From the NCBI GenBank assembly GCA_965208525.1, contig OZ242340.1, forward strand, positions 2,711,737 to 2,775,736: a DNA stretch of 64,000 bases, in the 5' to 3' direction. Of this stretch, positions 28,752 to 51,124 are shown in pieces. The notes under the pieces are model-generated. The model saw only the letters and a program-made list of their open reading frames with translations, was not told the origin of the DNA and searched no databases. Origin of the DNA: Pseudomonadales bacterium (GTDB lineage: Bacteria; Pseudomonadota; Gammaproteobacteria; Pseudomonadales; Azotimanducaceae). The position numbers and the translations under genes were made by a program. Position 1 is the stretch's first letter. The number at the start of each line of letters is the position of its first letter.

Positions 28752-28763
28752 GGGAGGGCAGTC

Positions 28764-35821: not shown

Positions 35822-35848
35822 GGACACTGTGGGCGCAGGAGGACAGGC

Positions 35849-36676: not shown

Positions 36677-36805
36677 CCCCGGCGACCATGGCTGGCGCCT
36701 AGACGCTGCCTGCCGAGGATGTTGAGGACGCCTGTTCGGTGCGGGTGATGGCGTGAAGGGCCGGCGCGCTGAAGCGGTGCGGATTGAGGGAAGGGAAGGG
36801 GCAAG

Positions 36806-38236: not shown

Positions 38237-40273
38237 GACGGATTCGCCGGTGCCAGAGTCGAGGATGCCCGCGACCCCCTTGCACTTTTCCTGCACGACA
38301 CCCGCGTCAAGTCCGAACAGGACGACGAGGACGAAGCTGAAAGCGGCCCGGTCGTCGTGCCGGCCCCGGTTCCCGGCGAGGTGCGCGCCGTGCATGTCCT
38401 CGCCGGAGACGAGGTGCTGACGGGCCAACCGCTCGCAACCATTCACTCGCTGGAGATCGACCACATCGTTCGCGCTGACGAGGGCGGTGCCGTGGAAACC
38501 GTCGCCGTGGACGCCGGCAATGTCGTCCGCGCCGGCGACTCCTTGCTGCAAATCGTCAAGTCCGACATGGCCGGCCGTTGGGCCGAACCTGCTGCGGAGG
38601 CAGACTTCGACACCCGCCGCTCCGACCTGGCCCTCGTGGACCAGCGCCGCACCTACATCGAAGACGACTTCCGCGCCGAACGCATCGGTCGACGCCACGC
38701 CAAGGAGCAGCGCAGCCCGCGCGAGAACATCGAACACCTCATGGACGGCACCTTCCGCGAGTACGGTCCCCTCGTCACCGCGGCAAGCTGGCAGAAGCAG
38801 GAATGGCTGCGGGAGACGACCCAGGCGGATGGCCTCGTCATGGGCATCGGCAGCATCAACGGCGATCTCTTCGATGCCGACGCCTCCCGCGCGGTGGTGG
38901 TTCACTACGACTACATGGTGGTGGCGGGCACCCAGGGCGGGCGCGGCCACTACAAGCAGGATCGCATCTACGAACTGGCCGGACGCTTCCGGTTGCCCCT
39001 GATCCTCTTTGCCGAGGGCGGCGGCGGTCGACCCGGCATCAGCGGCGGCGAACGGGCAGAAGCCGTGGACATCGCCATCGAGGCGGGGCTGCGCAAGCTT
39101 GGCGAGAAGGCGCCGCCCGGTTCCCGCGCCAGCGCCGTGGACGTGGCCGGTCGCGGCGGCGGGGGCGTGCCGGTGGACTCCTACACCTTCACCAAGCTCT
39201 GCGAGCTGAGCGGCCTGGTGCCCTTGGTGGGCGTCAACTCCGGGCGCTGCTTCGCCGGCAACACGGTGATGCTGGCGTCCTGCGATGTCATCATCGCGGC
39301 GGAGAACTCCACCATTGGCCTTGGTGGCCCTGCCATGATCGAAGGCGGGGGCCTCGGCATCTACACGCCGGAAGAAGTGGGTCCCATGTCCTTCCAGGTG
39401 CCAAACGGTGTCGTGGACATCCTCGTCAAGGACGACGAGGCGGCCATCGAGACGGCGAAAAAATACCTTTCCTACTTCCAGGGCGCGGTGGATAGCTGGG
39501 AGACGCCGGACCAGCGCCGCCTCCGCGCGATCATTCCGGAAGACCGCAGCGCGCTCTACGACATGCGCGAGCTCATCGCCACTTTGGCGGACGAAGACTC
39601 CATCCTCGAAATCCGCGAAGCCTTCGGCGTCGGGATCATCACCGCCTTCATCCGCATCGAAGGCGAGCCGATGGGCCTCATCGCCAATAACCCCGCGCAC
39701 CTATCTGGCGCCATCGACAGCGATGCCGCCGACAAGGCGGCGCGCTTCCTGCAACTCTGCGACACCTTCGACATCCCGGTGCTGTCGCTGATGGACTGTC
39801 CCGGCCTCATGCCGGGGCCGGAGTACGAGCAGGCAGCACTGCTTCGCCACTCAGGCCGCATGTTCGTCACCGGCGCCAACATGACCACGCCCATGTTCGG
39901 CGTCGTGGTGCGCAAGGCCTATGGAATGGGCGTGCGAGCGATGTGCGGCGGCAGCTCGCTGGAACCGTTCTTCACCGTCGCCTGGCCCACGGCAGAGTTC
40001 GCCGACATGACCATCGACGGCAGAGTCAATCTCATGTACGGCGAGGAACTGGCCGCGATTGAGGATGCAGCGGAACGAGAAGCGGTGCACCAACGCCTGA
40101 TGGATGCCCACGTCGATCGAGTGCGCGCGGTGAACGCGGGCGGCACCAACTACGGCATCGACGACGTCATCGACCCGGCCGACACCCGAGCGTGGATCGC
40201 GCAGGGGCTTAGGAGCGTGCCGAAACCCCCGCCGCGGGAGGAAAAGAAGCGACCCAATGTGGACACGTGGTAG
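36806..40273 (+). CDS. Single-chain biotin-dependent acyl-CoA carboxylase paralogue 1 (BC - degenerate BCCP - carboxyltransferase); BCCP lacks the biotin-acceptor lysine
   Basis: ATP-grasp biotin carboxylase (aa 1-450), a biotinyl-like domain with 'ATIHSLEIDHIV' instead of AMKM, and a PccB/AccD-like CT domain ('VVVHYDYMVVAGTQGG', '...RKAYGMGVRAM'). 1155 aa. Confidence 0.85.
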   Translation: MKLLVANRGEIAIRVMRAAAELGISTVAIAPRDDAGSLHTGKADEFVTLEGAGASAYLDIGQVVGAARETGCDAVHPGYGFLSENAELARACSEAGLTFVGPREETLRLFGDKARARSAASAAGVPVIRGIDHAVSLDEAEAFFASLGAGSAMMLKAVGGGGGRGSRMVERAEEVAEAFERCRAEAEASFGNGELYVEEFMRRARHVEVQVLGDGSGAAQHLGERECSVQRRFQKIVEVAPAPGLAEGVREAVIEAAVRFASGVDYLSAGTFEFLVDVSADASGGGFAFIETNARLQVEHTVTEEVTGVDVVASQLRLAQGATISDLGLDAPPALRGYAIQSRVCMESVREDGSIVPTGGVLTAYEAPSGPGVRTDGFGYGGYETSLNYDPLLAKVIAHSPSPDFGDAVARSLRALAEFRVEGVETNIAFLESILRHPDFAAAEVHTRFVDENMASLAAAEQGARFVTPPGFEPQAADGFAGARVEDARDPLALFLHDTRVKSEQDDEDEAESGPVVVPAPVPGEVRAVHVLAGDEVLTGQPLATIHSLEIDHIVRADEGGAVETVAVDAGNVVRAGDSLLQIVKSDMAGRWAEPAAEADFDTRRSDLALVDQRRTYIEDDFRAERIGRRHAKEQRSPRENIEHLMDGTFREYGPLVTAASWQKQEWLRETTQADGLVMGIGSINGDLFDADASRAVVVHYDYMVVAGTQGGRGHYKQDRIYELAGRFRLPLILFAEGGGGRPGISGGERAEAVDIAIEAGLRKLGEKAPPGSRASAVDVAGRGGGGVPVDSYTFTKLCELSGLVPLVGVNSGRCFAGNTVMLASCDVIIAAENSTIGLGGPAMIEGGGLGIYTPEEVGPMSFQVPNGVVDILVKDDEAAIETAKKYLSYFQGAVDSWETPDQRRLRAIIPEDRSALYDMRELIATLADEDSILEIREAFGVGIITAFIRIEGEPMGLIANNPAHLSGAIDSDAADKAARFLQLCDTFDIPVLSLMDCPGLMPGPEYEQAALLRHSGRMFVTGANMTTPMFGVVVRKAYGMGVRAMCGGSSLEPFFTVAWPTAEFADMTIDGRVNLMYGEELAAIEDAAEREAVHQRLMDAHVDRVRAVNAGGTNYGIDDVIDPADTRAWIAQGLRSVPKPPPREEKKRPNVDTW

Positions 40274-40295
40274 GGAAGCAGGGGGAGAGGCAAAG

Positions 40296-41726
40296 ATGAA
40301 GCTGTTGGTTGCGAACCGTGGGGAGATAGCGATCCGCGTGATGCGTGCGGCGGCGGAGCTGGGGATTTCTACGGTTGCGATTGCGCCGAGGGACGACGCC
40401 GGGTCGCTGCACACGGGCAAGGCGGACGAGTTCGTGACGCTTGAGGGGGCGGGCGCGTCGGCCTACCTCGACATCGGGCAGGTGGTGGGGGCGGCGCGGG
40501 AGACGGGCTGCGACGCGGTGCATCCGGGCTACGGCTTCCTGTCGGAGAACGCGGAGCTGGCGCGGGCGTGCTCCGAGGCGGGGCTGACGTTCGTGGGGCC
40601 GCGGGAGGAGACGCTGCGGCTGTTCGGCGACAAGGCGCGCGCCCGGTCGGCGGCGTCGGCGGCGGGGGTGCCGGTGATCCGTGGCATCGACCACGCGGTG
40701 TCGCTGGACGAGGCGGAGGCGTTCTTCGCGAGCCTGGGCGCTGGCAGCGCGATGATGCTGAAGGCGGTGGGCGGCGGCGGCGGTCGGGGCTCGCGCATGG
40801 TGGAGCGTGCGGAGGAGGTTGCGGAGGCGTTCGAGCGCTGCCGCGCGGAGGCGGAGGCGAGCTTCGGCAACGGCGAGCTGTACGTGGAGGAGTTCATGCG
40901 CCGGGCGCGGCACGTGGAGGTGCAGGTGCTGGGCGACGGCAGCGGCGCGGCCCAGCATCTCGGCGAGCGGGAGTGCAGCGTGCAGCGGCGTTTCCAGAAG
41001 ATCGTCGAGGTGGCGCCGGCGCCGGGTCTTGCCGAGGGGGTGCGGGAGGCGGTGATCGAGGCGGCGGTTCGGTTCGCCTCGGGCGTGGACTACCTGAGCG
41101 CCGGCACGTTCGAGTTTCTGGTGGACGTTTCGGCGGACGCCTCGGGGGGCGGGTTCGCGTTCATCGAGACGAACGCGCGGCTGCAGGTGGAGCACACGGT
41201 GACGGAGGAGGTCACCGGGGTCGACGTCGTGGCCTCGCAGCTCCGGCTGGCGCAGGGCGCGACGATTTCCGACCTGGGGCTGGACGCGCCGCCTGCCCTG
41301 CGGGGCTACGCGATCCAGTCGCGGGTGTGCATGGAGTCGGTTCGCGAAGACGGTTCCATCGTTCCGACCGGCGGGGTGCTGACGGCGTACGAGGCGCCGA
41401 GCGGCCCGGGTGTGCGCACGGACGGCTTCGGCTACGGCGGCTACGAGACGAGCCTGAACTACGACTCGCTGCTGGCGAAGGTGATCGCGCACTCGCCGTC
41501 GCCGGACTTCGGCGACGCCGTCGCCCGCTCGCTGCGGGCGCTGGCGGAGTTCCGGGTCGAGGGGGTGGAGACGAACATCGCCTTCCTCGAGAGCATCCTG
41601 CGCCACCCGGACTTCGCCGCCGCCGAGGTGCACACCCGCTTCGTCGACGAGAACATGGCCAGCCTCGCCGCCGCCGAGCAAGGCGCACGCTTCGTCACCC
41701 CGCCCGGATTCGAGCCGCAGGCGGCG
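40296..41726 (+). repeat. Direct repeat unit B of the 1.43-kb BC-domain repeat
   Basis: See unit A. Confidence 0.9.
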
Positions 41727-43517
41727 GCAGCGCAGCAGGCCGAGCAGGCGGTGGGGCCAGAGGGGTCCGTGGGCCTGGTTGCCCCCATGCAAGGAACCAT
41801 CGTCGAGATTGGCGTTGCCATTGGCGATGAGGTGCGCGTTGGTCAAGCCGTGGCCGTCGTTGAGGCAATGAAGCTGCAGCACGACATCCGGGCGGACCGC
41901 AACGGTGTTGTCTGCGCCGTCTCCATGGCGGAAGGCGACGTGGTGCGCGAGGGCTTTCCCATCGTCTTCCTGCACGAGTCCGATGTGGAAGGCGGCGCCC
42001 TCGAGGGCGATGCAGGAATGGACCTCGATCTCCTCCGGGGCGACATGCAGGAGGTCAACGAACTCATCGACCAAACCCTCGATGCCGCCAAGGCAGAAGC
42101 GGTGGCTGGGCTGCGCGAGAGCAACCGGCGCACTCCTAGGGAGAATCTCGACGATTTCCTGGACGAAGGCTCCTTCCGCGAGTTCGGTCCCCCAGCGGCC
42201 GGCTCCGCCGCCGGCGGCACCATCATGGGCTTCGGCAGCGTCAATGCCGACCTCGTCGGAGACGAGCGCAGCCGCGTGGCGGTGGTACACAGCAACTACC
42301 CAACCGCCGCCTACACCCACGGTCACTATCGTCAGGAGCAGATTCACGAGATGGCCAGGGACTGGCGCGTCCCTGTGGTGCTCTTCTCCGAAGGGGAGGG
42401 TGGCCCGCACGGCAACGTCGGCGGCGTCGGCATGGACGCCAGCGTCTTCACCGATTTCGCGAGGCTGTCGGGGCTGGTGCCGCTCATCGGCGTCAACACC
42501 GGCGACTGCTTCGCCGGCAATGCCGCCCTCCTCGCCTGCTGCGACGTCATCATCGCCACGGAGGACTCCACCATCGGCATGAACGGCCCGGCCGTCGTCG
42601 AGTCGAGCGGATTGGGCACGCACAGTGCCGCGGAACTCGGCGGCATGTCGTTCCAGGCAGCCAACGGCAGCGTCGACATCGTGGTTGAGGACGACGCGGC
42701 CGCGGTGGCCACCGCCAAGCAATATCTCTCTTACTTTCAGGGGCCTGTGTCGGACTGGGAAGCGCCAGACCAGCGCCGGATGCGGCATGTCATCCCGGAA
42801 GACCGCGTGCGCGCCTACGACATGCGCGAAATCATCGAGACCTTGGCCGACGAGGGCTCGGTGCTGGAGATCCGCAAAGACTTCGGCATCGGCGTCATCA
42901 CCTCCTTCATCCGCGTGGAAGGTCAGCCGATGGGCGTCGTGGCCAACAACCCGGCGCACCTCGCCGGCGCCGTGGACAGCCCAGGGGCAGACAACGGCGC
43001 CCGCTTCTTCCAGCTCTGCGACGCCTTCGACATCCCGGTGGTGGTGTTCATGGACTGTCCGGGGATCATGGTGGGCCCAGACCACGAGCGCACGGCCCTG
43101 GTCCGCCACGCCGTGCGCCTGTTCAACATTGGCGCCAACTGCACGGCGCCCATGTTCGGCATCATGGTGCGCAAGGCATACGGGCTCGGCGTGCAAGCCA
43201 TGATCGGCGGCGCCTCCTCGGTACCGTTCCTGACGGTGGCATGGCCCACGGCAGAATTCGCTGGCATGAACATCGACGGTGCCGTCAAGCTCTCCGCCCG
43301 CCGCGAACTGGCCGCCATCGAAGATGCCGAAGAGCGCAAGGACGCCTACGAACGACGCGTCGCCCAAGGCTATGAGTCGGCAAGAGCCGTCAACTCCGGC
43401 GCAAGATACGTGATCGACCCAGCCGACACCCGCGCCTTCATCGCTCGAGGCATGAAGAGCCTCCCACCAACCCCACCCCGCACGAAGAAGAAGCGCCCCT
43501 ATGTTGACACGTGGTAA
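40296..43517 (+). CDS. Single-chain biotin-dependent acyl-CoA carboxylase paralogue 2 (BC-BCCP-CT) with intact biotinylation motif
   Basis: Same BC domain as paralogue 1. BCCP has 'VVEAMKLQHDI'. The CT domain is ~55-60% identical to paralogue 1 and lacks its ~40-aa insertion. Start taken at the MKLLVAN ATG with a purine-rich RBS, not the upstream 40257 ATG that overlaps paralogue 1. Confidence 0.85.
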   Translation: MKLLVANRGEIAIRVMRAAAELGISTVAIAPRDDAGSLHTGKADEFVTLEGAGASAYLDIGQVVGAARETGCDAVHPGYGFLSENAELARACSEAGLTFVGPREETLRLFGDKARARSAASAAGVPVIRGIDHAVSLDEAEAFFASLGAGSAMMLKAVGGGGGRGSRMVERAEEVAEAFERCRAEAEASFGNGELYVEEFMRRARHVEVQVLGDGSGAAQHLGERECSVQRRFQKIVEVAPAPGLAEGVREAVIEAAVRFASGVDYLSAGTFEFLVDVSADASGGGFAFIETNARLQVEHTVTEEVTGVDVVASQLRLAQGATISDLGLDAPPALRGYAIQSRVCMESVREDGSIVPTGGVLTAYEAPSGPGVRTDGFGYGGYETSLNYDSLLAKVIAHSPSPDFGDAVARSLRALAEFRVEGVETNIAFLESILRHPDFAAAEVHTRFVDENMASLAAAEQGARFVTPPGFEPQAAAAQQAEQAVGPEGSVGLVAPMQGTIVEIGVAIGDEVRVGQAVAVVEAMKLQHDIRADRNGVVCAVSMAEGDVVREGFPIVFLHESDVEGGALEGDAGMDLDLLRGDMQEVNELIDQTLDAAKAEAVAGLRESNRRTPRENLDDFLDEGSFREFGPPAAGSAAGGTIMGFGSVNADLVGDERSRVAVVHSNYPTAAYTHGHYRQEQIHEMARDWRVPVVLFSEGEGGPHGNVGGVGMDASVFTDFARLSGLVPLIGVNTGDCFAGNAALLACCDVIIATEDSTIGMNGPAVVESSGLGTHSAAELGGMSFQAANGSVDIVVEDDAAAVATAKQYLSYFQGPVSDWEAPDQRRMRHVIPEDRVRAYDMREIIETLADEGSVLEIRKDFGIGVITSFIRVEGQPMGVVANNPAHLAGAVDSPGADNGARFFQLCDAFDIPVVVFMDCPGIMVGPDHERTALVRHAVRLFNIGANCTAPMFGIMVRKAYGLGVQAMIGGASSVPFLTVAWPTAEFAGMNIDGAVKLSARRELAAIEDAEERKDAYERRVAQGYESARAVNSGARYVIDPADTRAFIARGMKSLPPTPPRTKKKRPYVDTW

Positions 43518-43562
43518 GCCTCGGAACGCTTCAAGGCCACCCTGACGCCTTCCAACGCAACA

Positions 43563-43791
43563 CGTTGATAAACCAACAATGTGGCTCGAAGCCGAGCCAA
43601 CACCAACGTGCGGGCCGGATGGCGCGGTCCCACACGCCTTTCGGAGCGAGGGCCTTTTCACGCTCCTCCCGCCGAAGGCGAAGCAACCAAGGGCCGGAAG
43701 CTACAACCAGCCGTCTCCCCGCGAGACAGGCCTGGCAGACGGCGTGGATGGCTGTCTGTTTCCTGCCGTCCCTAGCCCTGCGTCCCTCCTG
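43563..43791 (+). repeat. Non-coding repeat element, copy 2 (short form), starting 'cgttgataaacc'
   Basis: Aligns with 13345-13661 except for a ~90-bp deletion. Lies in the 340-bp gap between carboxylase-2 and the first CoA-transferase gene. Confidence 0.7.
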
Positions 43792-43856
43792 GAGTAAGAA
43801 CTCGCTCCCGCTCGCAGTCCGCTATTCTTGCCTGCCGTGCAGGGAAGGGTTAGGGG

Positions 43857-44996
43857 ATGAGTGAGGAAGCCGCGCTGGCGGGCATTCGGGTGGTGGATGC
43901 CGCCGGGAGCATCGCCACGGCCTATTGCGGCAAGCTGTTTGCGGATCATGGCGCGGCTGTGGTCAATGCCGAGCCCCCCGAAGGCTTCGCCACGCGGCGG
44001 GAAGAACCGTTTCTGCCCGGCGCCCTGGCTCCGGAAAACAGCGCCCTCCACGCTTGGCTCTCCACCAACAAGGCGAGCGCAGTGGTCGAGTCGGTCGGCG
44101 ACATCCGCGACTTGGCGCGGGGGGCGCAGGTGGTGCTTGACGACGGGCGTTTCGATTGCGAGCACTTCTCGGCGCTCGCGCCCAACGTCGTGGTTTCTAC
44201 GGTGACCTGGTTCGGACGCACCGGGCCATATGCGGATTATCAAGGCACGGATGGCGTGGTGCAGTCGCTCATCGGCATGGTGCGCGGCATCGGTCTCGAG
44301 GAGGGCCCGCCCATTCTTCCCGCTGGCTGTCAGGCGCAGATCGTCGGCGGTCTCGCCGCCTACATCGGCACCCTCGGCCAGGTGATCGCCCGCGAGATCG
44401 GCAATGCCCGAGGCCCAGTCCGGCTCGACACGAGCATCTTCGAGGCCAATCTCTGCTTCACGGAGGTCGGTGGCGTGGGCGGCCACCGCAGCGGTCGCCG
44501 CGTCCGACGCATGGGCGTGAACCGCTACCCGCCCACCTATCCGCTCGGCATCTATCCCTGCCGTGATGGCTGGCTCGGCGTCACCGCGCTGACGCCATCG
44601 CAGTGGAAGAGCTTCTGTGCCTTGCTCGACATGCAGGAGTTTGCCGACGTGCCGCAATACCAGAGCGCGATCGGCCGCTTGCAGGATGCGGAGATGCTCG
44701 ACCCGCTCATCCACGAGCGGGTGCGGGAGCAGAGCGCGACGGAGCTCTTCAACCGCGGGCAGGGCGCGCGCATCCCGCTGGCGTTGGTGCCGACGATGGA
44801 GCAACTGTTCACGGTGGACCAGTATGTCGCCCGACGGGCGTTCGATGAGGTGCGGCCGCCGGGGCAGGAGGGCTTCGTGGCTCCGGTAACGCCGTTCCGC
44901 CTGTTCCGTACCCCTGCCACTCGCGGCGGCGACGTGGCCCCCCTCGGGTCGATGCCTCCGACGCCTGTCGAACCACCTCGGAGCGTGCGCGCATGA
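43857..44996 (+). CDS. Family III CoA-transferase (CaiB/BaiF family)
   Basis: 'GIRVVDAAGSIATAYCGKLFADHGAAVV' is a family-III N-terminus, at ~380 aa. Confidence 0.8.
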   Translation: MSEEAALAGIRVVDAAGSIATAYCGKLFADHGAAVVNAEPPEGFATRREEPFLPGALAPENSALHAWLSTNKASAVVESVGDIRDLARGAQVVLDDGRFDCEHFSALAPNVVVSTVTWFGRTGPYADYQGTDGVVQSLIGMVRGIGLEEGPPILPAGCQAQIVGGLAAYIGTLGQVIAREIGNARGPVRLDTSIFEANLCFTEVGGVGGHRSGRRVRRMGVNRYPPTYPLGIYPCRDGWLGVTALTPSQWKSFCALLDMQEFADVPQYQSAIGRLQDAEMLDPLIHERVREQSATELFNRGQGARIPLALVPTMEQLFTVDQYVARRAFDEVRPPGQEGFVAPVTPFRLFRTPATRGGDVAPLGSMPPTPVEPPRSVRA

Positions 44997-46216
44997 GCCG
45001 CCCCGGCCTGCTCGAAGGCGTGCGCGTCGTGGATCTCTCGATGGGCTGGGCCGGCCCCTTGGCGGCGCGGCATCTCGCCGACATGGGCGCTGATGTCATC
45101 AAGGTGGAAGGTTGCGTCCGCTTCGACTGGTGGCGTGGCTGGGAGGCCACCCAGGAGTGGATCGATGAGGGTGGCGCCGAGATGTCGCCGGCGTTCAACA
45201 TGGTGAACCGCAACAAGCGCGACCTGACGCTGGACCTCTCAACTTCGGAAGGGGCGGACCTGCTGTTGCGCTTGGTGGCCATCTCCGACGTCGTGGTGGA
45301 GAACTACTCCGCCGGCGTGCTGCCGAAGCTTGGCCTCGACTACCCCGTGCTGGCGAAGGCCAACCCCGAAGTCGTGATGATCTCGATGCCCGCTTTCGGC
45401 AGCAACGGCCCATGGCAAGGCTATCGAGCCTACGGTTCAACGGTCGAGCAGGCATCCGGCTTGCCGCATCAGTCCGGCGAGGAGTCCATGCCGCCCACCA
45501 TGACTCACGTCGCGCTTGGCGATTCGGTGGGTGGCCTCAACGGCGCGGCGGCGCTGCTCACGGCACTCCGGGCCCGGCGCAGAACCGGCAAGGGCCAGCA
45601 CCTCGACCTGTCGCAGTCGGAATGCCTGTTTCCGCTCGGCATCAAAGGCATCCTGACGCAGTCTGTCACCGGCTCGCCGCCGCAGCGACTCGGAAATCGC
45701 TCCCTCGAACACGCGCCGCACGGGGTCTATCCCTGCGCCGGCGACGACGAGTGGATCGTCATCCAGGTTCGCTCGGAAGCGGAGTGGAAGGCGTTCGAGG
45801 CGGCGAGTGGCATTGGCGGATTTGGCGATGCTGCGGATCGGCTGGCACGGCGGGAGGAACTCGACGACGCCGTGCGAGCTTTCACCTCGACGCAGGTTGT
45901 CGAGCTCTTGATGCCAGAGTTGCAGGAAGCGGGCGTCCCGGCGGCACGCTTGGCCGGGGGGCTGGAACTCACCACGGACCCGCACCTGGCGGCGCGGGGC
46001 TTTTGGAAGATGATGCAGCGCGACTATGTCGGCGAGCTGCCGCACCCGGCGCCGCCCTATCGCGTTGGCGAAGCGCCGTTCGACATCGACCGTCCGGCGC
46101 CGACCCTCGGCCAACACAACGTTGAGGTGCTGTCGGAAGTGCTGGGCCTCGCGCCCGACGAGATCGCGGCGTTGGCGGAGAAGGGCGTCATCGGCACCAA
46201 GCCGCGACTGCCATGA
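44993..46216 (+). CDS. Family III CoA-transferase (CaiB/BaiF family)
   Basis: 'GVRVVDLSMGWAGPLAARHLADMGADVIKVE'. 4-bp overlap with the upstream gene (translational coupling). Confidence 0.85.
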   Translation: MSRPGLLEGVRVVDLSMGWAGPLAARHLADMGADVIKVEGCVRFDWWRGWEATQEWIDEGGAEMSPAFNMVNRNKRDLTLDLSTSEGADLLLRLVAISDVVVENYSAGVLPKLGLDYPVLAKANPEVVMISMPAFGSNGPWQGYRAYGSTVEQASGLPHQSGEESMPPTMTHVALGDSVGGLNGAAALLTALRARRRTGKGQHLDLSQSECLFPLGIKGILTQSVTGSPPQRLGNRSLEHAPHGVYPCAGDDEWIVIQVRSEAEWKAFEAASGIGGFGDAADRLARREELDDAVRAFTSTQVVELLMPELQEAGVPAARLAGGLELTTDPHLAARGFWKMMQRDYVGELPHPAPPYRVGEAPFDIDRPAPTLGQHNVEVLSEVLGLAPDEIAALAEKGVIGTKPRLP

Positions 46217-48597
46217 CGGCGCCGCCGCTCACCGGCACACGCGTCGTCGATGCCACCACACGCTGGGGCGAAATGGCGGGACGCATCCTCGCGGAGCTTG
46301 GTGCCGACGTCATCAAGATCGAGCCGGCCGCTGGGTGTGATTCCCGCCGCGTGGGGCCATTCCACGAGGGAGAGTCGCTGTACTGGGCGGCGATGGGCGC
46401 CGGCAAGCACAGCGTGGTTGCGGACGACCCGGAGCCGTATCTCTCGGACGCGGATGTATTCATCGAGTCGGGCTTCCGCGGGGCGCTGAATGAGCGCTTT
46501 CCGCGCTTGATCCATGCCTGCGTGACGCCGTTTGGCCTCGGTGGCCCGTTGGCGGATGCGCCAGCCGCCGAGGTCACCGTCGAAGCCGCGGGGGGCCTCG
46601 TCAACCTGCAAGGCAACGGCGACCGACCGCCGCTGCCCATGGGCGCAATGCCGCAGGCTGCGTTCCATGCCGGCGCGCAGGCGGCGGCGGACATCGTGGT
46701 GGCGCTCAACGCGCGGGAAGGCTCGGGGCTGGGGCAACGGCTGGATGTTTCCGCGCAGGCATGCATCGTCTGGACTCTGATGAATGCCACCGGCTTTCCG
46801 CCGAACACCGGGCGCAACCCACCGGGCACCAGCGAGTTTCGTGGCCAGTTGCCGCCCTTGGTCGCACCGGGTCTCAAGCTGCCGAACATCGTGCGCTGCC
46901 GCGACGGCCATGCCCAGCTTCGCTTGCAGATGCCGGTGATCGGCGAGCGCACCTTCCATGCGCTACTGCGTTGGGCGGAGGAAAGCGGGCTCGACGTGCC
47001 CGACGCGTTGCGCGGACGAGACATGACCGGCTGGCTGGCGGCGCTGGCAGCCGGCGAGGTGAAAGCGGAAGACGTGGGCATCGCGGCGGAACGTGTCGTG
47101 GATGTCTTGGCGCTGCACACGAAGCGCGAGATCCAGTCGTTCTCGGCGAAGCACGGTCTCACCCTTGCCGCCATCTACACGGTCGCCGATCTCGCCACCG
47201 ATCCGCAGCTCGAAGACCGTGACTACTGGGTGCATTGTGACGGGCGGCGCTACGCAGGTCCGTTCGCCCGGCTGTCCCGAACGCCGCTGTCGCGTGCCCG
47301 CCACGCCCCGGCGATCGGCGAGTCCATGGCGAGCACGCGAACTGCGACCGATGTGCAGGACAAGACGCCCGCCGATCAGGCCAACCTGGACGCGCGCCGG
47401 CAGGCACCTTCTTCGTCGCGGCGTGTTTCGTCGGCTTTCGAGGGGCTGCGCGTGGCCGACTTCAGTTGGGTGGGTGTCGGTCCCATGATCGGCAAGGCGC
47501 TGGCGGATCATGGCGCGACGGTGGTGCGCATCGAGTCCTCGAGCCGGCTCGACCTCCTGCGCACGTCGGCACCCTTCAAGGACGGCAAGCGCCACCCCGA
47601 CCGGGCGCAGTTCATGGCCAACTTCAACACCTCCAAGCGCGGCATCACGCTGGACCTCAAGAATCCGGAGGGCCAACGGGTCGCCCGGCGCATGGCGGAT
47701 TGGGCAGACGTGGTGCTCGAGAGCTTCTCGCCGGGCACGATGGCTCGCTTTGGCCTCGACTGGGACGCGCTCTCGAGCGAGCGCGACGACCTCATCATGC
47801 TGTCCACCTGCATGCGAGGCCAGACGGGGAGGGAGCGAACCTACTCCGGTTTCGGCGGCCAGGGCGCAGCCATTGCGGGGCTCTTTGGGCTGGTCGGCTG
47901 GCAAGACCGTCCGCCTTCCGGGCCGTGGGGCGCCTACACGGACTTCATCACCCCTCGCTTCGCCACCGCTACCCTCGGCGCCGCGCTCCTGCACAGGCAG
48001 CGCACGGGCAAGGGGCAGTACATCGATGTCTCGCAGATCGAGTGCGGCATTCGCTTCCTCGAACCGTTGGTGCTCGAACACGCGGCCAACGGCAACGTCG
48101 CCACCCGATTGGGACAGGGCTCGCCACAGCTCGATCCACACGGCGTCTTCGCCTGTCGTGGCACCCATCGCTATGTCGCCGTGGGCGTGGAGACAGACGC
48201 CGAGCGCGAGGCGCTGGCGAGTGCCATCGGGCATGCTTGCGCAGATGCCAGCGCCGGTCTCGATGGGGCGTTAACGTCGTGGTGCGCGTCGCGCGATGCC
48301 TTCGCCGCCGCAGCCTGCTTGCGCGATCACGGCGTGCCGGCGCATGTCGTCGCTCGCCCTGCGGACCTCTACCACGACGAGCAGCTGGCGCACCGTCACT
48401 TCTTCGTGACGCTGAACCATCCTGTCATGGGTCCCACGCCCTACGACGGCCCGGCCACCATCTACTCCCGTACGCCGCCGCGCCTGCGGACGCCAGCGCC
48501 ATGTCTCGGCCAGCACAATCGCGAGGTGATGGGTGGGATGCTGGGCATCGACGGCGCCGAATACGAACGCCTGCGCGCGGCCGGCGCCTTCGGCTAG
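46213..48597 (+). CDS. Double-domain family III CoA-transferase (two CaiB-like modules fused)
   Basis: First module 'GTRVVDATTRWGEMAGRILAELGADVIKIE'. Second module begins 'FEGLRVADFSWVGVGPMIGKALADHGATVVRIE'. 794 aa. 4-bp overlap with the upstream gene. Confidence 0.8.
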   Translation: MTAPPLTGTRVVDATTRWGEMAGRILAELGADVIKIEPAAGCDSRRVGPFHEGESLYWAAMGAGKHSVVADDPEPYLSDADVFIESGFRGALNERFPRLIHACVTPFGLGGPLADAPAAEVTVEAAGGLVNLQGNGDRPPLPMGAMPQAAFHAGAQAAADIVVALNAREGSGLGQRLDVSAQACIVWTLMNATGFPPNTGRNPPGTSEFRGQLPPLVAPGLKLPNIVRCRDGHAQLRLQMPVIGERTFHALLRWAEESGLDVPDALRGRDMTGWLAALAAGEVKAEDVGIAAERVVDVLALHTKREIQSFSAKHGLTLAAIYTVADLATDPQLEDRDYWVHCDGRRYAGPFARLSRTPLSRARHAPAIGESMASTRTATDVQDKTPADQANLDARRQAPSSSRRVSSAFEGLRVADFSWVGVGPMIGKALADHGATVVRIESSSRLDLLRTSAPFKDGKRHPDRAQFMANFNTSKRGITLDLKNPEGQRVARRMADWADVVLESFSPGTMARFGLDWDALSSERDDLIMLSTCMRGQTGRERTYSGFGGQGAAIAGLFGLVGWQDRPPSGPWGAYTDFITPRFATATLGAALLHRQRTGKGQYIDVSQIECGIRFLEPLVLEHAANGNVATRLGQGSPQLDPHGVFACRGTHRYVAVGVETDAEREALASAIGHACADASAGLDGALTSWCASRDAFAAAACLRDHGVPAHVVARPADLYHDEQLAHRHFFVTLNHPVMGPTPYDGPATIYSRTPPRLRTPAPCLGQHNREVMGGMLGIDGAEYERLRAAGAFG

Positions 48598-48718
48598 GGG
48601 GCCTGCGAAGTTTCCGCGACGCAGTCCCCACAAAGCGACGTTTTCTGTCGCACCGCTTTTTCGCCGTGCGCCTGGTGTCGTACAATCGCGCAGATCGCAG
48701 TTATGTGACAGGTGGCCC

Positions 48719-49735
48719 ATGCGCAAGGCAGGCGACACGATCATGCGCTCGCTGACGATGCTGCAGGTGATTCCGGTGCAGCCCCGTTCCAAGACCACGC
48801 GGGAAATCGGCGAGGAACTGCTCGCGGTGGACCCCGACTACGAGGTGGACATCCGCTCGATCCAGCGCAGCCTCGAGAAACTCTCTGCCATCTTCCCAAT
48901 CAGCAGCGAGCGGGACGGTCGTGCCAACCGCTGGTTCTGGACTCAAAAGGACGCCATCACCCAAATCCCGGCGATGAGCCGGGAGACGGCCTTCGCGCTG
49001 AAGCTCGCGGGCGAGTACCTCAAGCCCATCATGCCGCCCTCCACCCTGCGTCTGATCGCCGGTCACCTGCGCGCCGCCGACGAGATGCTCAAGGGCGAGT
49101 CGAAGCTCGGCGCATGGGCGCGCAAGGCGCGCATCGTCGAACGGGGCATTGCCATGACACCGCCGAGCGTGCGTCAGGACGTGATCGAGGAGGTGTATCG
49201 GGCACTGCTCGACGACCAGCGCATCGAGGTCACATGCAGCGCCCCCGGGGAGCGGGCCACGCGACGGGTGTTGAATCCCCTTGGGGTCGTCTTCCGGGGC
49301 GGCATCATCCATCTGGTGGCCACAGAGGAAGGCGAGGAGGGCGAGGGCGAAGTGCAGCATTTCGTGCTGCATCGGCTGTCGAATCCCACCGTGCTGGCGG
49401 AGGCAGTGCAACGTCCGCGCGGGTTCAGCCTGTCGCGCCACCTCGACGAGACGGAGGAGTTCTCGTCTGAGGTGGGCGCCGGCAAGCTCAAGCTGCGAGC
49501 GGCGTTTCAGCCCGAGGCGTTCGGTCAGCTAGGCGACGCCAAGCTCGCGTCCGATCACCGCACAACCATGCGACGCGACGGCCGCATCCTCGTCGAGGCC
49601 ACGGTTGCCGACTCGGATGAGCTCCGCACTTGGCTCATGGGCTTCGGCGCAATGGTGGAAGTGCTGTCGCCAAAGCGCCTGCGCAACGAATTCACGGCGC
49701 ACGCCGAAGCCCTGCACGCGGCCTACGTCGGATAG
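48719..49735 (+). CDS. WYL-domain transcriptional regulator (HTH-WYL-WCX; YafY/PafBC/BrxR-type architecture)
   Basis: N-terminal wHTH '...TREIGEELLAVDPDYEVDIRSIQRSLEKLSAIFPI', a central WYL-like beta-region 'RRVLNPLGVVFRGGIIHLVA' and a C-terminal WCX-like '...ELRTWLMGFGAMVEVLSPKRLRNEF'. Alternative start at 48743. Confidence 0.7.
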   Translation: MRKAGDTIMRSLTMLQVIPVQPRSKTTREIGEELLAVDPDYEVDIRSIQRSLEKLSAIFPISSERDGRANRWFWTQKDAITQIPAMSRETAFALKLAGEYLKPIMPPSTLRLIAGHLRAADEMLKGESKLGAWARKARIVERGIAMTPPSVRQDVIEEVYRALLDDQRIEVTCSAPGERATRRVLNPLGVVFRGGIIHLVATEEGEEGEGEVQHFVLHRLSNPTVLAEAVQRPRGFSLSRHLDETEEFSSEVGAGKLKLRAAFQPEAFGQLGDAKLASDHRTTMRRDGRILVEATVADSDELRTWLMGFGAMVEVLSPKRLRNEFTAHAEALHAAYVG

Positions 49736-49811
49736 TTCCTGTAGCGCTTGCCTGGGGAAGCCGACTCGCTTGGTTGGGTGCTGCACCGTGTCCGGTGCCT
49801 TGACCGGAGCC

Positions 49812-50786
49812 CTAAACGTAAGGAACCCCCTGCGTCTCCACATACAGCGAGTACAGCGACTGCGAGCCGGTCATGAACAGCCGGTTGCGCTTCACGCCGC
49901 CGAAGCAGACGTTGGACACGCCCTCCGGCAGGTGGATTTCACCGATCTTGTCCCCGTCGGGCGCGAACACGTGGACGCCGTCGTAGCCATCGCCGCCCCA
50001 GCCGGCGGCTGACCAGACGTTGCCGTCCACATCCACGCGAATGCCGTCCGAACTGCCGGCACCCATGTCGCAGAATACGCGGGGGCTCGCAAGCGTTGCA
50101 TTGTCCACGACGTCGAACGCCGTGATGTGGTGCGGATGCCCGGGCACGTGCGAGGCGCCGGTGTCCACAAGGTAGAGCGTCTTGTAGTCGGGCGAGAAGG
50201 CGAGCCCGTTCGGCTTTTCCAGGCTCTCGTCCACCACCGCGGCTTCGAGCGTTTCCGGCGCCAGCCGATAGACGCGCGTTGGCAGCTCGAACGGCGCCTT
50301 GTGGCCTTCGTAGTTGACGTGAATGCCATAGCCGGGGTCCGTGAACCAGATGCCGCCGTCCGCGTGCACCACGACGTCGTTTGGCGCGTTCAGGCGCTTG
50401 CCCTCGAAGCGATCCATGAGCACGGTGACGGTGCCGTCGTGCTCGGTGCGCGTGACCCGACGGGACCCGTGCTCGCAGGTGACGAGTCGGCCTTGCCGGT
50501 CTCTGGTGTTGCCGTTGGCGTTGTCGGCCGGAGAACGCCAGACGGTTACCTCGCCGGTGATCTCGTCGAAGCGCAGGATGCGGTCGTTCGGGATGTCGCT
50601 CCACAAGAGGTAGCGCCCGTCGCCGAACCACACCGGCCCTTCCGCCCAGCGACAGCCGACATAAAGCCGCTCCACGGCGGCGCTGCCCAGCACATAGCGG
50701 CGAAAGCGCCGATCCAGAACCTGCACGGCGGGGTCTGGGTAGCGCACCGGCTCGTTCCAGTCGCGCGATGGGGTGGCACCGTCCAT
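49812..50786 (-). CDS. SMP-30/gluconolactonase/LRE-family lactonase
   Basis: 'GPVWFGDGRYLLWSDIPNDRILRFD', 'NAPNDVVVHADGGIWFTDPGYG' and 'SSDGIRVDVDGNVWSA' are typical six-bladed propeller lactonase motifs. ATG at 50786 (MDGATPS). Confidence 0.75.
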   Translation of the reverse strand: MDGATPSRDWNEPVRYPDPAVQVLDRRFRRYVLGSAAVERLYVGCRWAEGPVWFGDGRYLLWSDIPNDRILRFDEITGEVTVWRSPADNANGNTRDRQGRLVTCEHGSRRVTRTEHDGTVTVLMDRFEGKRLNAPNDVVVHADGGIWFTDPGYGIHVNYEGHKAPFELPTRVYRLAPETLEAAVVDESLEKPNGLAFSPDYKTLYLVDTGASHVPGHPHHITAFDVVDNATLASPRVFCDMGAGSSDGIRVDVDGNVWSAAGWGGDGYDGVHVFAPDGDKIGEIHLPEGVSNVCFGGVKRNRLFMTGSQSLYSLYVETQGVPYV

Positions 50787-51124
50787 TTTTTTGCCTCTTG
50801 CATTGAAATCCCTTGCAACCTGAGCCCTCCGCCCCTCGGAATGGCTCGTCGCCTTGGCTCCGTGGCCGCCGACGATAGGCCCTCGATTGTATGTGCCGGA
50901 GACCGAAACGGGCGGTCCTCGAGGGACGTGTGCTCGTTCGAGCGACCGCACCGCCCCGTCGCGGCGTCACGAGTCGGACTGATATCTTACTGATACCAAA
51001 AATGGGCGTTTGCGCTATTTCGCCTCTGCACCCCTCGCTTGGTGGCGCCAGTGGCGCTGCTGGGGCTTCTGATATCTGTTGCCCGAAGAGGCAACCGTGA
51101 GAAGGAAAAGAGAGGAGAAACGAA

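What the first reader, a model, noticed from the sequence alone, without database searches (positions are those of the whole stretch)
43857..48597. Three consecutive family-III CoA-transferase genes (four CaiB modules, one fused double) translationally coupled downstream of the carboxylases
The three genes overlap by 4 bp each (stop/start sharing). The third encodes two complete CaiB/BaiF-like modules in one 794-aa chain. Family-III transferases typically move CoA between a dicarboxylic acid and its CoA ester (e.g. mesaconyl-, succinyl-, formyl-, itaconyl-CoA). Coupled to biotin carboxylases that generate carboxylated acyl-CoAs, this hints at a pathway handling C4-C6 dicarboxylyl-CoA intermediates. 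Four paralogous modules in a row suggests multiple distinct CoA-shuttling steps or a hetero-oligomer.
Basis: partly seen in the sequence, partly recalled or inferred. Interest (0 to 1): 0.6.

Follow-up and report, generated by a model that had tools for sequence, protein, structure and literature searches.

The report
Two active/inactive CoA-transferase pairs
Three back-to-back genes of a marine (probably sponge-associated) bacterium encode four CoA-transferase modules, but only two can be catalytic. They form two "dead partner plus live partner" enzymes, one made from two genes and one fused into a single chain, which is an uncharacterised example of an architecture already known.

Summary
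The three genes are real: 43857-44996, 44993-46216 and 46213-48597, joined by ATGA overlaps, all family-III CoA-transferase, the third with two modules.

Only modules 2 and 4 carry the catalytic aspartate (g2 Asp177, g3 Asp577). These align with Asp178 of BbsF. Modules 1 and 3 have Gln161 and Ala150 at that position, and the pattern holds in about 230 related modules.

The layout is dead-live-dead-live. That means two heteromeric BbsEF/SptAB-type transferases, one split (g1+g2) and one fused (g3). In some relatives g1 and g2 are themselves fused.

Two-domain type-III transferases with the aspartate in the C-terminal domain are already a recognised class (DddD, PtmU4). This is therefore a new member of a known kind, and its substrate is unknown.

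The genes are not translationally coupled to the carboxylases. A 339-bp gap holding a repeat insertion separates them. Even so, an LCC-type single-chain biotin carboxylase sits next to g1/g2-type genes in at least four different gene orders, so a functional link is plausible.

Side finding: the first carboxylase lacks the biotin-carrying lysine, and its biotin-carboxylase (BC) domain is 99.7% identical in DNA to that of the second.

The parts
43857..44996 (+). g1: 379-aa family-III CoA-transferase-fold protein with Gln161 (codon 44337-44339) where the catalytic Asp should be. Predicted non-catalytic partner of g2.
   Evidence: Pfam PF02515 E = 4e-52. phmmer alignments to YfdE 4hl6, 4ed9 and 10uh put Gln at the Asp position. 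Orthologues have Gln (12) or Glu (19), never Asp. Codon checked.
44993..46216 (+). g2: 407-aa catalytic family-III CoA-transferase subunit with Asp177 (codon 45521-45523). Its start overlaps the g1 stop (ATGA).
   Evidence: Pfam E = 2e-99. Best solved relative is BbsEF chain B, E = 5e-60, and Asp177 aligns with its Asp178. Asp is present in 42 of 42 homologous modules. Junction shown.
46213..47334 (+). g3 N-terminal module (residues 1-374): BbsE/SptA-like, Ala150 (codon 46660-46662) in place of the catalytic Asp. Non-catalytic.
   Evidence: Alignments to 4hl6, 4ed9, 10uh and 9fn0_A. Among 79 homologues the position is A 52, S 20, Y 3, others 3, and Asp only once. Many invariant residues show purifying selection. 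Closest to the first EbN1 transferase gene (123 bits) and to BbsE (77 bits).
47335..47421 (+). g3 inter-module linker (residues 375-403), predicted disordered.
   Evidence: AlphaFold2 pLDDT below 50 for residues 375-403. Homologue lengths vary from 752 to 842 aa, leaving out one partial protein of 617 aa. The two-domain class is described as having a 'poorly conserved linker' (PMC6006322).
47422..48597 (+). g3 C-terminal module (residues 404-794): BbsF/SptB-like catalytic module with Asp577 (codon 47941-47943).
   Evidence: phmmer against 9fn0_B E = 1.5e-69. Foldseek top hit is BbsEF chain D, target TM-score 0.91, 36% identity. Asp in 79 of 79 homologues.
43518..43856 (.). Spacer between carboxylase 2 and g1. 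It holds a roughly 250-bp repeat insertion (about 43555-43800) that is absent from three close relatives (L001, L002, L005).
   Evidence: No Rfam match. No + strand terminator-like or promoter-like site. RNA fold z = -2.9 on the + strand.
36806..40273 (+). Carboxylase 1 (CBX1): LCC-type single-chain BC-BCCP-CT protein, 1155 aa. Its BCCP has Glu550 (38453-38455) where the biotinyl-lysine should be.
   Evidence: Pfam domains. 'HSLEIDH' against 'EAMKLQH' in CBX2; the same substitution is present in the L001 and L005 orthologues.
40296..43517 (+). Carboxylase 2 (CBX2): LCC-type single-chain carboxylase with the canonical biotinyl-Lys (41871-41873). The likely start is ATG 40296 behind GGGAGAGG, not the longest-ORF start at 40257.
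   Evidence: Full-length match to the solved long-chain acyl-CoA carboxylase 4rcn, E = 8e-254. Start inferred from the repeat boundary and the Shine-Dalgarno sequence.
36793..38235 (+). First copy of a 1.44-kb direct repeat (second copy 40282-41725, 99.7% identical) that covers the biotin-carboxylase domains of both carboxylases.
   Evidence: blastn within the window. The same repeat is 100% identical in L001 and 95.9% in L005, whereas identity between genomes is about 89-92%.
48533..49735 (+). WYL/WCX-domain transcription regulator directly downstream of g3. The start is uncertain (GTG 48533 inside g3, or ATG 48719).
   Evidence: Pfam WYL and WCX. Conserved downstream of the trio only in the closest relatives L001 and L003-L005. 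Start candidates.
49812..50951 (-). SMP-30/gluconolactonase-like (SGL) gene, convergent with the trio. It is a recurrent neighbour of g3-type genes.
   Evidence: Pfam SGL E = 1e-54. Present near the g3 homologue in 19 of 84 loci at 70-97% identity.
35849..36676 (+). Luciferase-like (TIGR03619, F420-dependent LLM class) oxidoreductase 130 bp upstream of carboxylase 1.
   Evidence: Pfam. NCBIfam TIGR03619 219.5 bits against a cut-off of 166.9. LLM genes recur near g3 homologues in 13 of 84 loci.

Best explanation
The three genes encode two heteromeric-type family-III (class III) CoA-transferases, not four. Each enzyme is built from one module that keeps the fold but has lost the nucleophilic aspartate, plus one catalytic module.

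In g1+g2 the two modules are separate, translationally coupled polypeptides (g1 Gln161, g2 Asp177). In g3 they are fused N-to-C through a disordered linker of about 30 residues (Ala150, then Asp577).

By analogy with benzylsuccinate CoA-transferase BbsEF and the phthalate enzyme SptAB, the dead module is the obligatory dimer partner. It completes the family's two-chain dimer and helps shape the single active site. In that site the Asp forms the acyl-anhydride and CoA-thioester intermediates that move CoA from a donor thioester to an acceptor acid. (Inferred: the donor is probably succinyl-CoA or another dicarboxylyl-CoA, and the acceptor a bulkier carboxylic acid.)

The g1/g2-type enzyme is recurrently encoded next to an LCC-type single-chain biotin carboxylase. 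It most likely makes, or recycles CoA from, the acyl-CoA that the carboxylase acts on.

What is shown and what is inferred:
- Shown: gene structure, fold, presence or absence of the Asp, its conservation, natural fusions, and recurrent carboxylase adjacency.
- Inferred: heterodimer formation, one active site per pair, and the metabolic coupling.
- Unknown: the substrates.
For: 1. Asp column.
- g2 and the g3 C-module have Asp. g1 has Gln and the g3 N-module has Ala, in a MAFFT alignment and in independent phmmer alignments to four solved enzymes.
- g2 Asp177 and g3 Asp577 align with BbsF Asp178. That residue carries the CoA adduct, as the title of PDB entry 9fol states.

2. Conservation over 231 modules from 84 loci.
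- Asp is present in 42 of 42 M2-type and 79 of 79 M4-type modules.
- M3-type modules have Asp in 1 of 79. M1-type modules have Gln or Glu only.
- The dead modules are still strongly conserved (invariant residues). They evolve faster than their live partners: M3 identity is below M4 identity in 74 of 79 fused proteins and never above it; M1 is below M2 in 19 of 21 loci.

3. The characterised heteromeric enzymes show the same pattern and gene order.
- BbsE (9fn0_A) and the first gene of the EbN1 plasmid-2 transferase pair have Tyr at this column. BbsF and the second EbN1 gene have Asp.
- The EbN1 genes also overlap by 4 bp and align colinearly with g3 at 34% identity.

4. Fusion evidence for a g1-g2 interaction.
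- g1 and g2 are fused in frame in L022, L025, L029, L035 and L037, and in a family of 1353 two-domain proteins.

5. Structure prediction.
- The AlphaFold2 model of g3 has pLDDT 86.4 and pTM 0.92 over all 794 residues, with only the linker disordered. This fits a single compact two-module body.
- The best structural matches are BbsEF chains: target TM-score 0.91 for chains B/D and 0.81 for chains A/C.

6. Literature.
- Two-domain type-III transferases carry the conserved Asp in the C-terminal domain. Mutating it (PtmU4 D430A/E/N) lowers activity 125-400-fold (PMC6006322).

7. Carboxylase link, seen in four distinct arrangements.
- CBX1-CBX2-g1-g2-g3 in the window, L001 and L005; the shorter L002 contig shows the CBX2-g1-g2-g3 part of it.
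- Methyltransferase-CBX-g1~g2 with 4- and 7-bp overlaps in L169.
- g1-g2-CBX in L086.
- g1~g2, one gene, then methyltransferase-CBX in L170.
- In addition, a remnant cut by an insertion sequence in L004.
Against: - No biochemical data exist for any close homologue. No module reaches any curated NCBIfam equivalog cut-off, so donor and acceptor are guesses.
- g1 does not group by sequence with BbsE, SptA or the g3 N-module. Profile scores are 98 bits for the E-type model against 109 bits for the F-type model. It may be an independently derived dead subunit, and the analogy rests on position and loss of the Asp.
- Nineteen of 31 g1 orthologues have Glu at the Asp position. Glu could retain weak activity in those lineages.
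- The carboxylase link is not universal. It is absent from the L006-L021/L081 clade, which has the same trio, from L085, L087 and L171, and from most g3-type loci.
- The interlocked-dimer geometry of the fused chain could not be inspected, because the tool returns no coordinates.
- In this window a 339-bp spacer with an inserted repeat may uncouple transcription of the transferases from the carboxylases.
Confidence: 0.75

Rival explanations
1. One reading: four catalytically competent transferase modules carry out several distinct CoA-shuttling steps on carboxylated acyl-CoA intermediates.
For: All four modules match PF02515 over nearly their full length. All four are conserved across phyla.
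Against: Two modules lack the nucleophilic Asp (Gln161, Ala150), and their homologues lack it almost universally. Replacing this Asp by Ala, Glu or Asn in a two-domain family member cuts activity 125-400-fold (PMC6006322).
Confidence: 0.05
2. The Asp-less modules are not mere scaffolds. They have a second catalytic or ligand-binding role (lyase, isomerase or racemase, intramolecular CoA transfer without an enzyme nucleophile, or substrate or CoA delivery), as the two-domain protein DddD combines transferase and lyase activities.
For: The g3 N-module has a long list of invariant residues, including charged ones (E124, D137, D160, D178, E208), across gamma-proteobacteria and Myxococcales. This is more conservation than a passive scaffold might need. 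DddD is a bifunctional two-domain member. An Asp/Glu-independent internal-anhydride mechanism has been proposed for another CoA-transferase, ThnP, although that enzyme belongs to family I.
Against: Alpha-methylacyl-CoA racemases of this fold use an Asp at the equivalent position (my knowledge of M. tuberculosis MCR Asp156), and that Asp is missing here. The residue varies (A, S, Y, W, N, G; Q or E) in a way that fits loss of function rather than gain of a new one. In BbsEF the CoA adduct named in the entry title is on Asp178, which lies in the Asp-bearing chain.
Confidence: 0.12
3. The adjacency to the carboxylases is incidental. The transferases belong to a separate catabolic function (for example activation of ring-opened or lactone-derived acids from dissolved organic matter), and the carboxylases are an unrelated neighbouring unit.
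For: The commonest neighbours of g3-type genes are Amidohydro_2 (29 of 84 loci), SGL lactonase-like (19), 2-hydroxyacid dehydrogenase (14), luciferase-like oxidoreductase (13), amidase (11) and EthD (11). Carboxylases are not among them. A whole clade has the g1-g2-g3 trio with no carboxylase within 10 kb. The spacer in the window carries an inserted repeat. SAR202 genomes show parallel expansions of flavin monooxygenases and CaiB-type transferases (PMC5395668).
Against: For the g1/g2 type, carboxylase adjacency survives four different gene orders and includes overlapping stop/start codons. That is hard to explain by chance.
Confidence: 0.25

Closest known systems
Succinyl-CoA:(R)-benzylsuccinate CoA-transferase BbsEF (PDB 9fn0, 9fol)
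   Same: It has two paralogous family-III subunits encoded in E-then-F order. Only the F-type chain has the catalytic Asp (D178); the other chain has Tyr at that column. It is the best sequence and structure match of g2 and of the g3 C-module (E = 5e-60 and 1.5e-69; target TM-score 0.91; 34-37% identity). The g3 N-module matches the E-type chain better than the F-type chain.
   Different: Identity is only 34-37% for the live modules and 26-34% for the dead ones. No bbs beta-oxidation genes or benzylsuccinate synthase are nearby. The host is an aerobic-type marine gamma-proteobacterium. One of the two pairs here is fused. By sequence g1 is not BbsE-like.
Succinyl-CoA:o-phthalate CoA-transferase SptAB. 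Here this means the adjacent CoA-transferase genes EBN1_RS22145/RS22140 on Aromatoleum aromaticum EbN1 plasmid 2, next to UbiD/UbiX genes. The identification as SptAB rests on my knowledge and on the mention of SptAB in A. aromaticum in PMC11659651.
   Same: The pair has a 4-bp stop/start overlap. The first gene has Tyr and the second Asp at the catalytic column. It aligns colinearly with g3 over 94% of its length at 34% identity and is the best hit in the plasmid collection. The transferase is paired with a (de)carboxylating enzyme.
   Different: The partner enzyme there is a UbiD-type decarboxylase, not a biotin carboxylase. The genes are split, not fused. There is no evidence for phthalate use here.
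[quoted passage not shown]
   Same: Tandem CoA-transferase domains are joined by a poorly conserved linker, and the conserved catalytic Asp lies in the C-terminal domain. The class had 2401 members in 2018 (PMC6006322). g3 and the fused g1~g2 relatives have exactly this architecture.
   Different: No DMSP-operon genes (transporter, alcohol and aldehyde dehydrogenases) and no thioacid-cassette genes (sulfur-carrier proteins, acyl-CoA synthetase) flank g3. No DddD or PtmU4 sequence was available for a direct comparison. The literature places DddD as an outgroup to the other two-domain proteins.
[quoted passage not shown]
   Same: CBX2 matches it end to end (residues 15-1064 against 4-1071, E = 8e-254) with the same BC-BCCP-CT order.
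   Different: Here there are two tandem paralogues. One lacks the biotinyl-lysine and has an insertion of about 40 residues in its CT domain. Their BC domains are kept nearly identical. The substrate is unknown.

Membership tests
Family-III (class III, CaiB/BaiF/Frc) CoA-transferases | Sequence and fold of the CoA_transf_3 domain | tested here: met
   PF02515 E = 4e-52, 2e-99 and 9e-123, with two stretches in g3. The AlphaFold2 model of g3 (both modules) matches solved family members with target TM-scores of 0.8-0.9. g1 and g2 were not modelled.
Family-III (class III, CaiB/BaiF/Frc) CoA-transferases | Nucleophilic Asp that forms the anhydride and thioester intermediates | tested here: met
   Met for g2 (Asp177) and the g3 C-module (Asp577). 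NOT met for g1 (Gln161) or the g3 N-module (Ala150). Those two modules have the fold but should not be filed as transferases in their own right.
Family-III (class III, CaiB/BaiF/Frc) CoA-transferases | Interlocked dimer with active sites at the subunit interface | tested here: inconclusive
   pTM 0.92 for the whole two-module chain suggests a fixed intramolecular pairing. No coordinates or contacts could be inspected.
Heteromeric BbsEF/SptAB-type transferases | Two paralogous subunits from adjacent genes, with the non-Asp subunit first and the Asp subunit second | tested here: met
   The g1-g2 pair and the g3 N-C module order both fit. BbsE and EbN1 gene 1 have Tyr; BbsF and EbN1 gene 2 have Asp.
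Heteromeric BbsEF/SptAB-type transferases | Each subunit groups by sequence with its counterpart (E with E, F with F) | tested here: inconclusive
   Met for g2, the g3 C-module (F-type) and the g3 N-module (E-type). Not met for g1, which scores alike against E-type and F-type profiles (98 against 109 bits).
Heteromeric BbsEF/SptAB-type transferases | alpha2beta2 quaternary structure, with succinyl-CoA as CoA donor | not testable with these tools
   Needs purification and assays.
[quoted passage not shown] | Tandem domains, variable linker, conserved Asp in the C-terminal domain | tested here: met
   the definition comes from PMC6006322.
DddD (DMSP CoA-transferase/lyase) | Orthology to DddD, and the dddD operon context (transporter, alcohol and aldehyde dehydrogenases) | tested here: not met
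   The operon context is absent. The best plasmid-collection hits are the split EbN1 pair, and no two-domain hit exceeds about 30% identity. Direct comparison with a DddD sequence was not possible.
LCC-type single-chain biotin carboxylase | BC-BCCP-CT in one chain and a biotinyl-lysine in an (A/S)MK(M/L) motif | tested here: met
   Both carboxylases have the domain order, and CBX2 matches 4rcn end to end. CBX2 has the AMKL motif; CBX1 has SLEI, so the lysine criterion is NOT met for CBX1.

The most novel reading that the evidence does not exclude
The whole block is one machine built from live/dead paralogue pairs. This reading comprises the biotin-less CBX1, the biotinylated CBX2 (their BC domains kept identical by gene conversion), the split pair g1/g2 and the fused pair g3. 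CBX2's biotin arm would serve two different carboxyltransferase sites in a mixed oligomer. The two single-site transferases would load a free acid with CoA and then take the CoA back off the carboxylated product. The net result would be ATP-driven carboxylation of free organic acids using only catalytic amounts of CoA.
Probability: 0.08. Interest if true: 0.65.

Novelty: new member of a known kind. Interest (0 to 1): 0.35.

Why it matters
CaiB/BaiF-type genes are among the most expanded families in sponge symbionts and in deep-ocean SAR202 genomes. They are routinely counted one by one as 'CoA-transferases'.

This locus shows that a large share of such modules are dead partners. Here that is half of them, and it is every N-terminal module of a two-domain family with thousands of members. 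Counts of catalytic capacity and pathway reconstructions are therefore overestimates.

The locus also ties the recognised two-domain class to the heteromeric BbsEF/SptAB enzymes as fused and split forms of one design. It further flags a recurrent, uncharacterised pairing with LCC-type carboxylases (often with a methyltransferase as well) that could be tested biochemically.

Tried and rejected
- An Rfam scan of 35000-51000 for a riboswitch or leader in the 339-bp spacer found nothing relevant.
- The promoter/terminator scan of the spacer found no + strand signal.
- NCBIfam gave no equivalog-level assignment for any module.
- Literature searches for the BbsEF structure paper found nothing in the held library; a search for fused family-III enzymes with generic terms found nothing relevant. 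The two-domain class was found later through DddD searches.
- ThnP (an Asp/Glu-less intramolecular transferase) was considered as a model for the dead modules. It was set aside because it belongs to family I.
- DddD orthology was considered because of the marine setting and the identical architecture. It was rejected on context and on weak similarity to all two-domain plasmid hits, but no DddD sequence was available for a direct test.
- The afdb50 fold library was unavailable.
- I first read g1 as 'BbsE-like'. A profile test showed it is not specifically E-type.
- I first took the carboxylase link to be absent outside the closest relatives. This was corrected after finding truncated carboxylase ends at locus edges and after fetching wider flanks.

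Full report
OBSERVATION

The window is about 67% GC.
- g1, 43857-44996, 379 aa
- g2, 44993-46216, 407 aa
- g3, 46213-48597, 794 aa

All three have the GC3 of 0.82-0.83 typical of coding frames here. Both junctions are ATGA overlaps, gcATGAgc and ccATGAcg. All three match Pfam CoA_transf_3 (E = 4e-52, 2e-99, 9e-123), and g3 matches in two stretches.

Upstream on the same strand lie two proteins of about 1100 aa with biotin-carboxylase (BC), biotin-carrier (BCCP) and carboxyltransferase (CT) domains. The second matches the solved single-chain long-chain acyl-CoA carboxylase 4rcn from end to end (E = 8e-254).

One part of the title is wrong. Carboxylase 2 ends at 43517, and g1 starts 339 bp later behind its own purine-rich ribosome-binding stretch. 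About 250 bp of that spacer is a repeat with a second copy at window 13345-13639 (82-85% identity). One relative (L003) has it, but three others (L001, L002, L005) do not. In L001 and L005 the ORF coordinates leave only about 110-170 bp between the carboxylase stop and the g1 start. No Rfam family and no + strand terminator-like site was found in the spacer.

THE FOUR MODULES ARE TWO KINDS

Pairwise comparison shows that g2 and the C-terminal half of g3 (M2, M4) are clear relatives: 32% identity, 164-179 bits. g1 and the N-terminal half of g3 (M1, M3) are divergent from everything, at 42-66 bits.

At the column of the family's nucleophilic aspartate:
- M2 reads LGDSVGG and M4 reads YTDFITP.
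- M1 reads QAQIVGG and M3 reads QAAFHAG.

Independent phmmer alignments to solved enzymes (YfdE 4hl6, 4ed9, 10uh) give the same answer: g1 has Gln161 and g3 has Ala150 where those enzymes have the Asp. The codons were checked. In the best solved relative, benzylsuccinate CoA-transferase BbsEF, g2 Asp177 aligns with chain B Asp178. That is the residue named as carrying the CoA adduct in the title of PDB entry 9fol. The other BbsEF chain (9fn0_A) has Tyr at that column.

This is a family property, not an accident of this genome. I extracted 231 modules from 84 related loci and aligned them:
- M2-type: Asp in 42 of 42.
- M4-type: Asp in 79 of 79.
- M3-type: Ala 52, Ser 20, Tyr 3, other residues 3, Asp only once.
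- M1-type: Gln 12, Glu 19, never Asp (also the g1 alignment).

The dead modules are nevertheless under strong constraint. The g3 N-module has dozens of invariant residues across 47 proteins down to 54% identity. They do evolve faster than their live partners: M3 identity is below M4 identity in 74 of 79 fused proteins and never above it, and M1 is below M2 in 19 of 21 loci.

SPLIT AND FUSED FORMS OF ONE DESIGN

The order along the DNA is dead-live-dead-live. Three lines of evidence say each dead/live pair is one enzyme.

1. The characterised heteromeric enzymes have the same layout.
- BbsE/BbsF is one such pair. The adjacent transferase genes on Aromatoleum aromaticum EbN1 plasmid 2 are another.
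- The EbN1 genes overlap by 4 bp and sit beside UbiD and UbiX genes. This is the phthalate cluster, SptAB, as I know it; SptAB in A. aromaticum is also mentioned in PMC11659651.
- In both pairs the first gene has Tyr and the second Asp.
- The EbN1 pair is the best hit of g3 in the plasmid collection and aligns colinearly with it at 34% identity over 94% of its length.
- M3 is closest to the first-gene products (123 and 77 bits). M4 is closest to the second-gene products (234-236 bits, 37%).

2. g1 and g2 are fused in frame in a sister clade (L022, L025, L029, L035, L037). A search with that fusion finds 1353 proteins at E <= 1e-50, and nearly all of the 120 listed are two-domain length, about 780-910 aa. 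Metagenome contigs show the fused form to be the commoner state at greater distance.

3. AlphaFold2 models all 794 residues of g3 as one confident body (pLDDT 86.4, pTM 0.92), with only residues 375-403 disordered. The best Foldseek hits are the BbsEF chains: target TM-score 0.91 for chains B/D and 0.81 for chains A/C.

One caveat concerns g1. Its family does not group by sequence with BbsE, the first EbN1 gene or M3. Profile scores are 98 bits against the E-type model and 109 against the F-type model. It may be an independently derived dead partner.

WHAT IS ALREADY KNOWN

Dong et al. [quoted passage not shown] The class has tandem domains, a poorly conserved linker and the conserved Asp in the C-terminal domain.
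- DddD (DMSP CoA-transferase/lyase) and PtmU4 (thioacid formation) are the characterised members.
- Mutating the PtmU4 Asp to Ala, Glu or Asn cut activity 125-400-fold.
- Landry et al. 2017 (PMC5395668) noted 'DddD-like' CaiB paralogues in SAR202 Chloroflexi. The g3 family also occurs in Dehalococcoidia MAGs.

The fused double is therefore a known architecture. None of the modules reaches a curated NCBIfam equivalog cut-off. The flanks lack the DMSP-operon and thioacid-cassette genes, so the function stays open.

WHERE IT OCCURS AND WHAT IT SITS NEXT TO

The closest relatives (83-93% identity) are Gammaproteobacteria/Pseudomonadales MAGs. Bin names such as IRC, SB, COS and RHO suggest sponge metagenomes; that reading is mine. 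More distant g3-type proteins (44-57% identity) occur in Myxococcota, Dehalococcoidia and other Chloroflexi, and Spirochaetales.

The g1-g2-g3 trio is conserved in about 25 Pseudomonadales genomes.

Neighbours of g3-type genes vary. Counts out of 84 loci:

| Neighbour family | Loci |
|---|---|
| Amidohydro_2 | 29 |
| SGL (SMP-30/gluconolactonase-like) | 19 |
| 2-hydroxyacid dehydrogenase | 14 |
| luciferase-like oxidoreductase | 13 |
| amidase | 11 |
| EthD | 11 |
| MFS transporter | 10 |
| enoyl-CoA hydratase | 9 |
| thiolase-like | 8 |
| DUF35 (beside a thiolase-like gene) | 5 |

Carboxylases are not general neighbours of g3. For the g1/g2 type, however, an LCC-type carboxylase recurs in four arrangements:
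- CBX1-CBX2-g1-g2-g3 in the window, L001 and L005. The shorter L002 contig shows the CBX2-g1-g2-g3 part. In L004 the carboxylase is truncated by an IS insertion.
- Methyltransferase-CBX-g1~g2 with 4- and 7-bp overlaps in L169, the genome of L022. Carboxylase 3' ends also lie directly upstream of the fusion in L025, L029 and L035.
- g1-g2-CBX in L086.
- g1~g2, one gene, then methyltransferase-CBX in L170.

The carboxylase is absent from the L006-L021/L081 clade and from L085, L087 and L171. I read this as a real but facultative functional link for g1/g2. For g3 there is no evidence of such a link.

MECHANISM (INFERRED)

Each pair should have one active site. In it the Asp attacks the donor thioester to give an acyl-aspartyl anhydride. 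CoA then forms the aspartyl thioester, and the acceptor acid reverses the sequence. This is the class III mechanism as summarised in PMC6006322.

The dead module supplies the second half of the obligatory dimer. By analogy with BbsEF and SptAB, the donor may be succinyl-CoA and the acceptor a bulkier (di)carboxylic acid. Near a carboxylase, the enzyme would make the acyl-CoA substrate or recover CoA from the carboxylated product. None of this was testable here.

SIDE FINDINGS IN THE CARBOXYLASES

- The two genes share a 1444-bp direct repeat at 99.7% identity (36793-38235 and 40282-41725). It covers the whole BC domain; the rest of the genes is at most 71% identical.
- The same repeat is 100% identical within L001 and 95.9% within L005. 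Orthologues in different genomes are only about 89-92% identical. This points to gene conversion.
- The repeat boundary and a GGGAGAGG motif put the true CBX2 start at 40296. The apparent overlap with CBX1 is therefore an artefact of taking the longest ORF.
- CBX1 has SLEI where CBX2 has AMKL. Glu550 replaces the biotinyl-lysine, and the same substitution is present in the L001 and L005 orthologues. The single carboxylases of L022, L051 and L086 have the canonical (S/A)MKM.
- CBX1 probably depends on the biotin arm of CBX2. That would explain why both BC domains are kept identical (inference).

VERDICT

Interest is moderate to low (0.35). The most useful products are the dead/live reading of these abundant marine genes and the biotin-less carboxylase paralogue.

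Noticed in passing
window 36793-38235 and 40282-41725: A 1444-bp direct repeat at 99.7% identity covers the biotin-carboxylase domains of the two tandem LCC-type carboxylases. The rest of the genes is at most 71% identical. Within-genome identity is 100% in L001 and 95.9% in L005, against about 89-92% between genomes. This suggests ongoing gene conversion; an assembly artefact is unlikely, since the repeat appears in three independent assemblies.
   Followed up: partly
window 38453-38455 (CBX1 residue 550): Carboxylase 1 has Glu in place of the biotinyl-lysine (SLEI instead of AMKL). The substitution is conserved in the L001 and L005 orthologues. Its CT domain also has an insertion of about 40 residues. 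It is probably a biotin-less paralogue that depends on carboxylase 2.
   Followed up: partly
window 43555-43800 and 13345-13639; L003 166-467: A roughly 250-nt intergenic repeat (82-85% identity between the two window copies; the second copy carries a 78-nt internal insertion in the alignment). It is inserted between carboxylase 2 and g1 in this genome and in L003, but not in L001, L002 or L005. RNA fold z = -2.9 on the + strand. No Rfam match and no terminal inverted repeats were found.
   Followed up: partly
L169 5998-12466; L170 8001-15694: In more distant relatives a UbiE-like SAM methyltransferase gene overlaps the start of the LCC-type carboxylase by 4 bp. It travels with the two-domain g1~g2 transferase, forming a recurrent methyltransferase-carboxylase-transferase triad of unknown function. 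No methyltransferase is present in the window.
   Followed up: no
L004 4973-8334: In an 83-93% identical relative the carboxylase upstream of g1 is truncated after the BC domain by an IS (DDE_Tnp_1) insertion. The transferase trio and downstream synteny are intact.
   Followed up: partly
window 48533-49735: A WYL/WCX-domain regulator lies directly after g3. Its start is ambiguous: GTG 48533 would overlap g3 by 65 nt, and ATG 48719 would leave a 121-nt gap. It is present only in the closest relatives.
   Followed up: no
window 27723-29765: Two tandem glyceraldehyde-3-phosphate dehydrogenase paralogues. The first matches the Pfam domains much more weakly than the second.
   Followed up: no
window 364-1515: A phage-type integrase gene (Arm-DNA-binding plus integrase domains) sits at the left end of the window, in a region of higher GC (0.72-0.73).
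   Followed up: no
L062, L069, L076, L078, L080 (Dehalococcoidia); L085, L087: In L062, L069, L076, L078 and L080 a thiolase-like gene and a DUF35/ChsH2-type OB-fold gene lie just downstream of the g3-type two-domain transferase. In L085 and L087 the same two genes lie about 6-8 kb downstream of a split g1-g2 pair, beyond a regulator and ABC-transporter genes. This recalls the BbsAB thiolase of the benzylsuccinate pathway.
   Followed up: no
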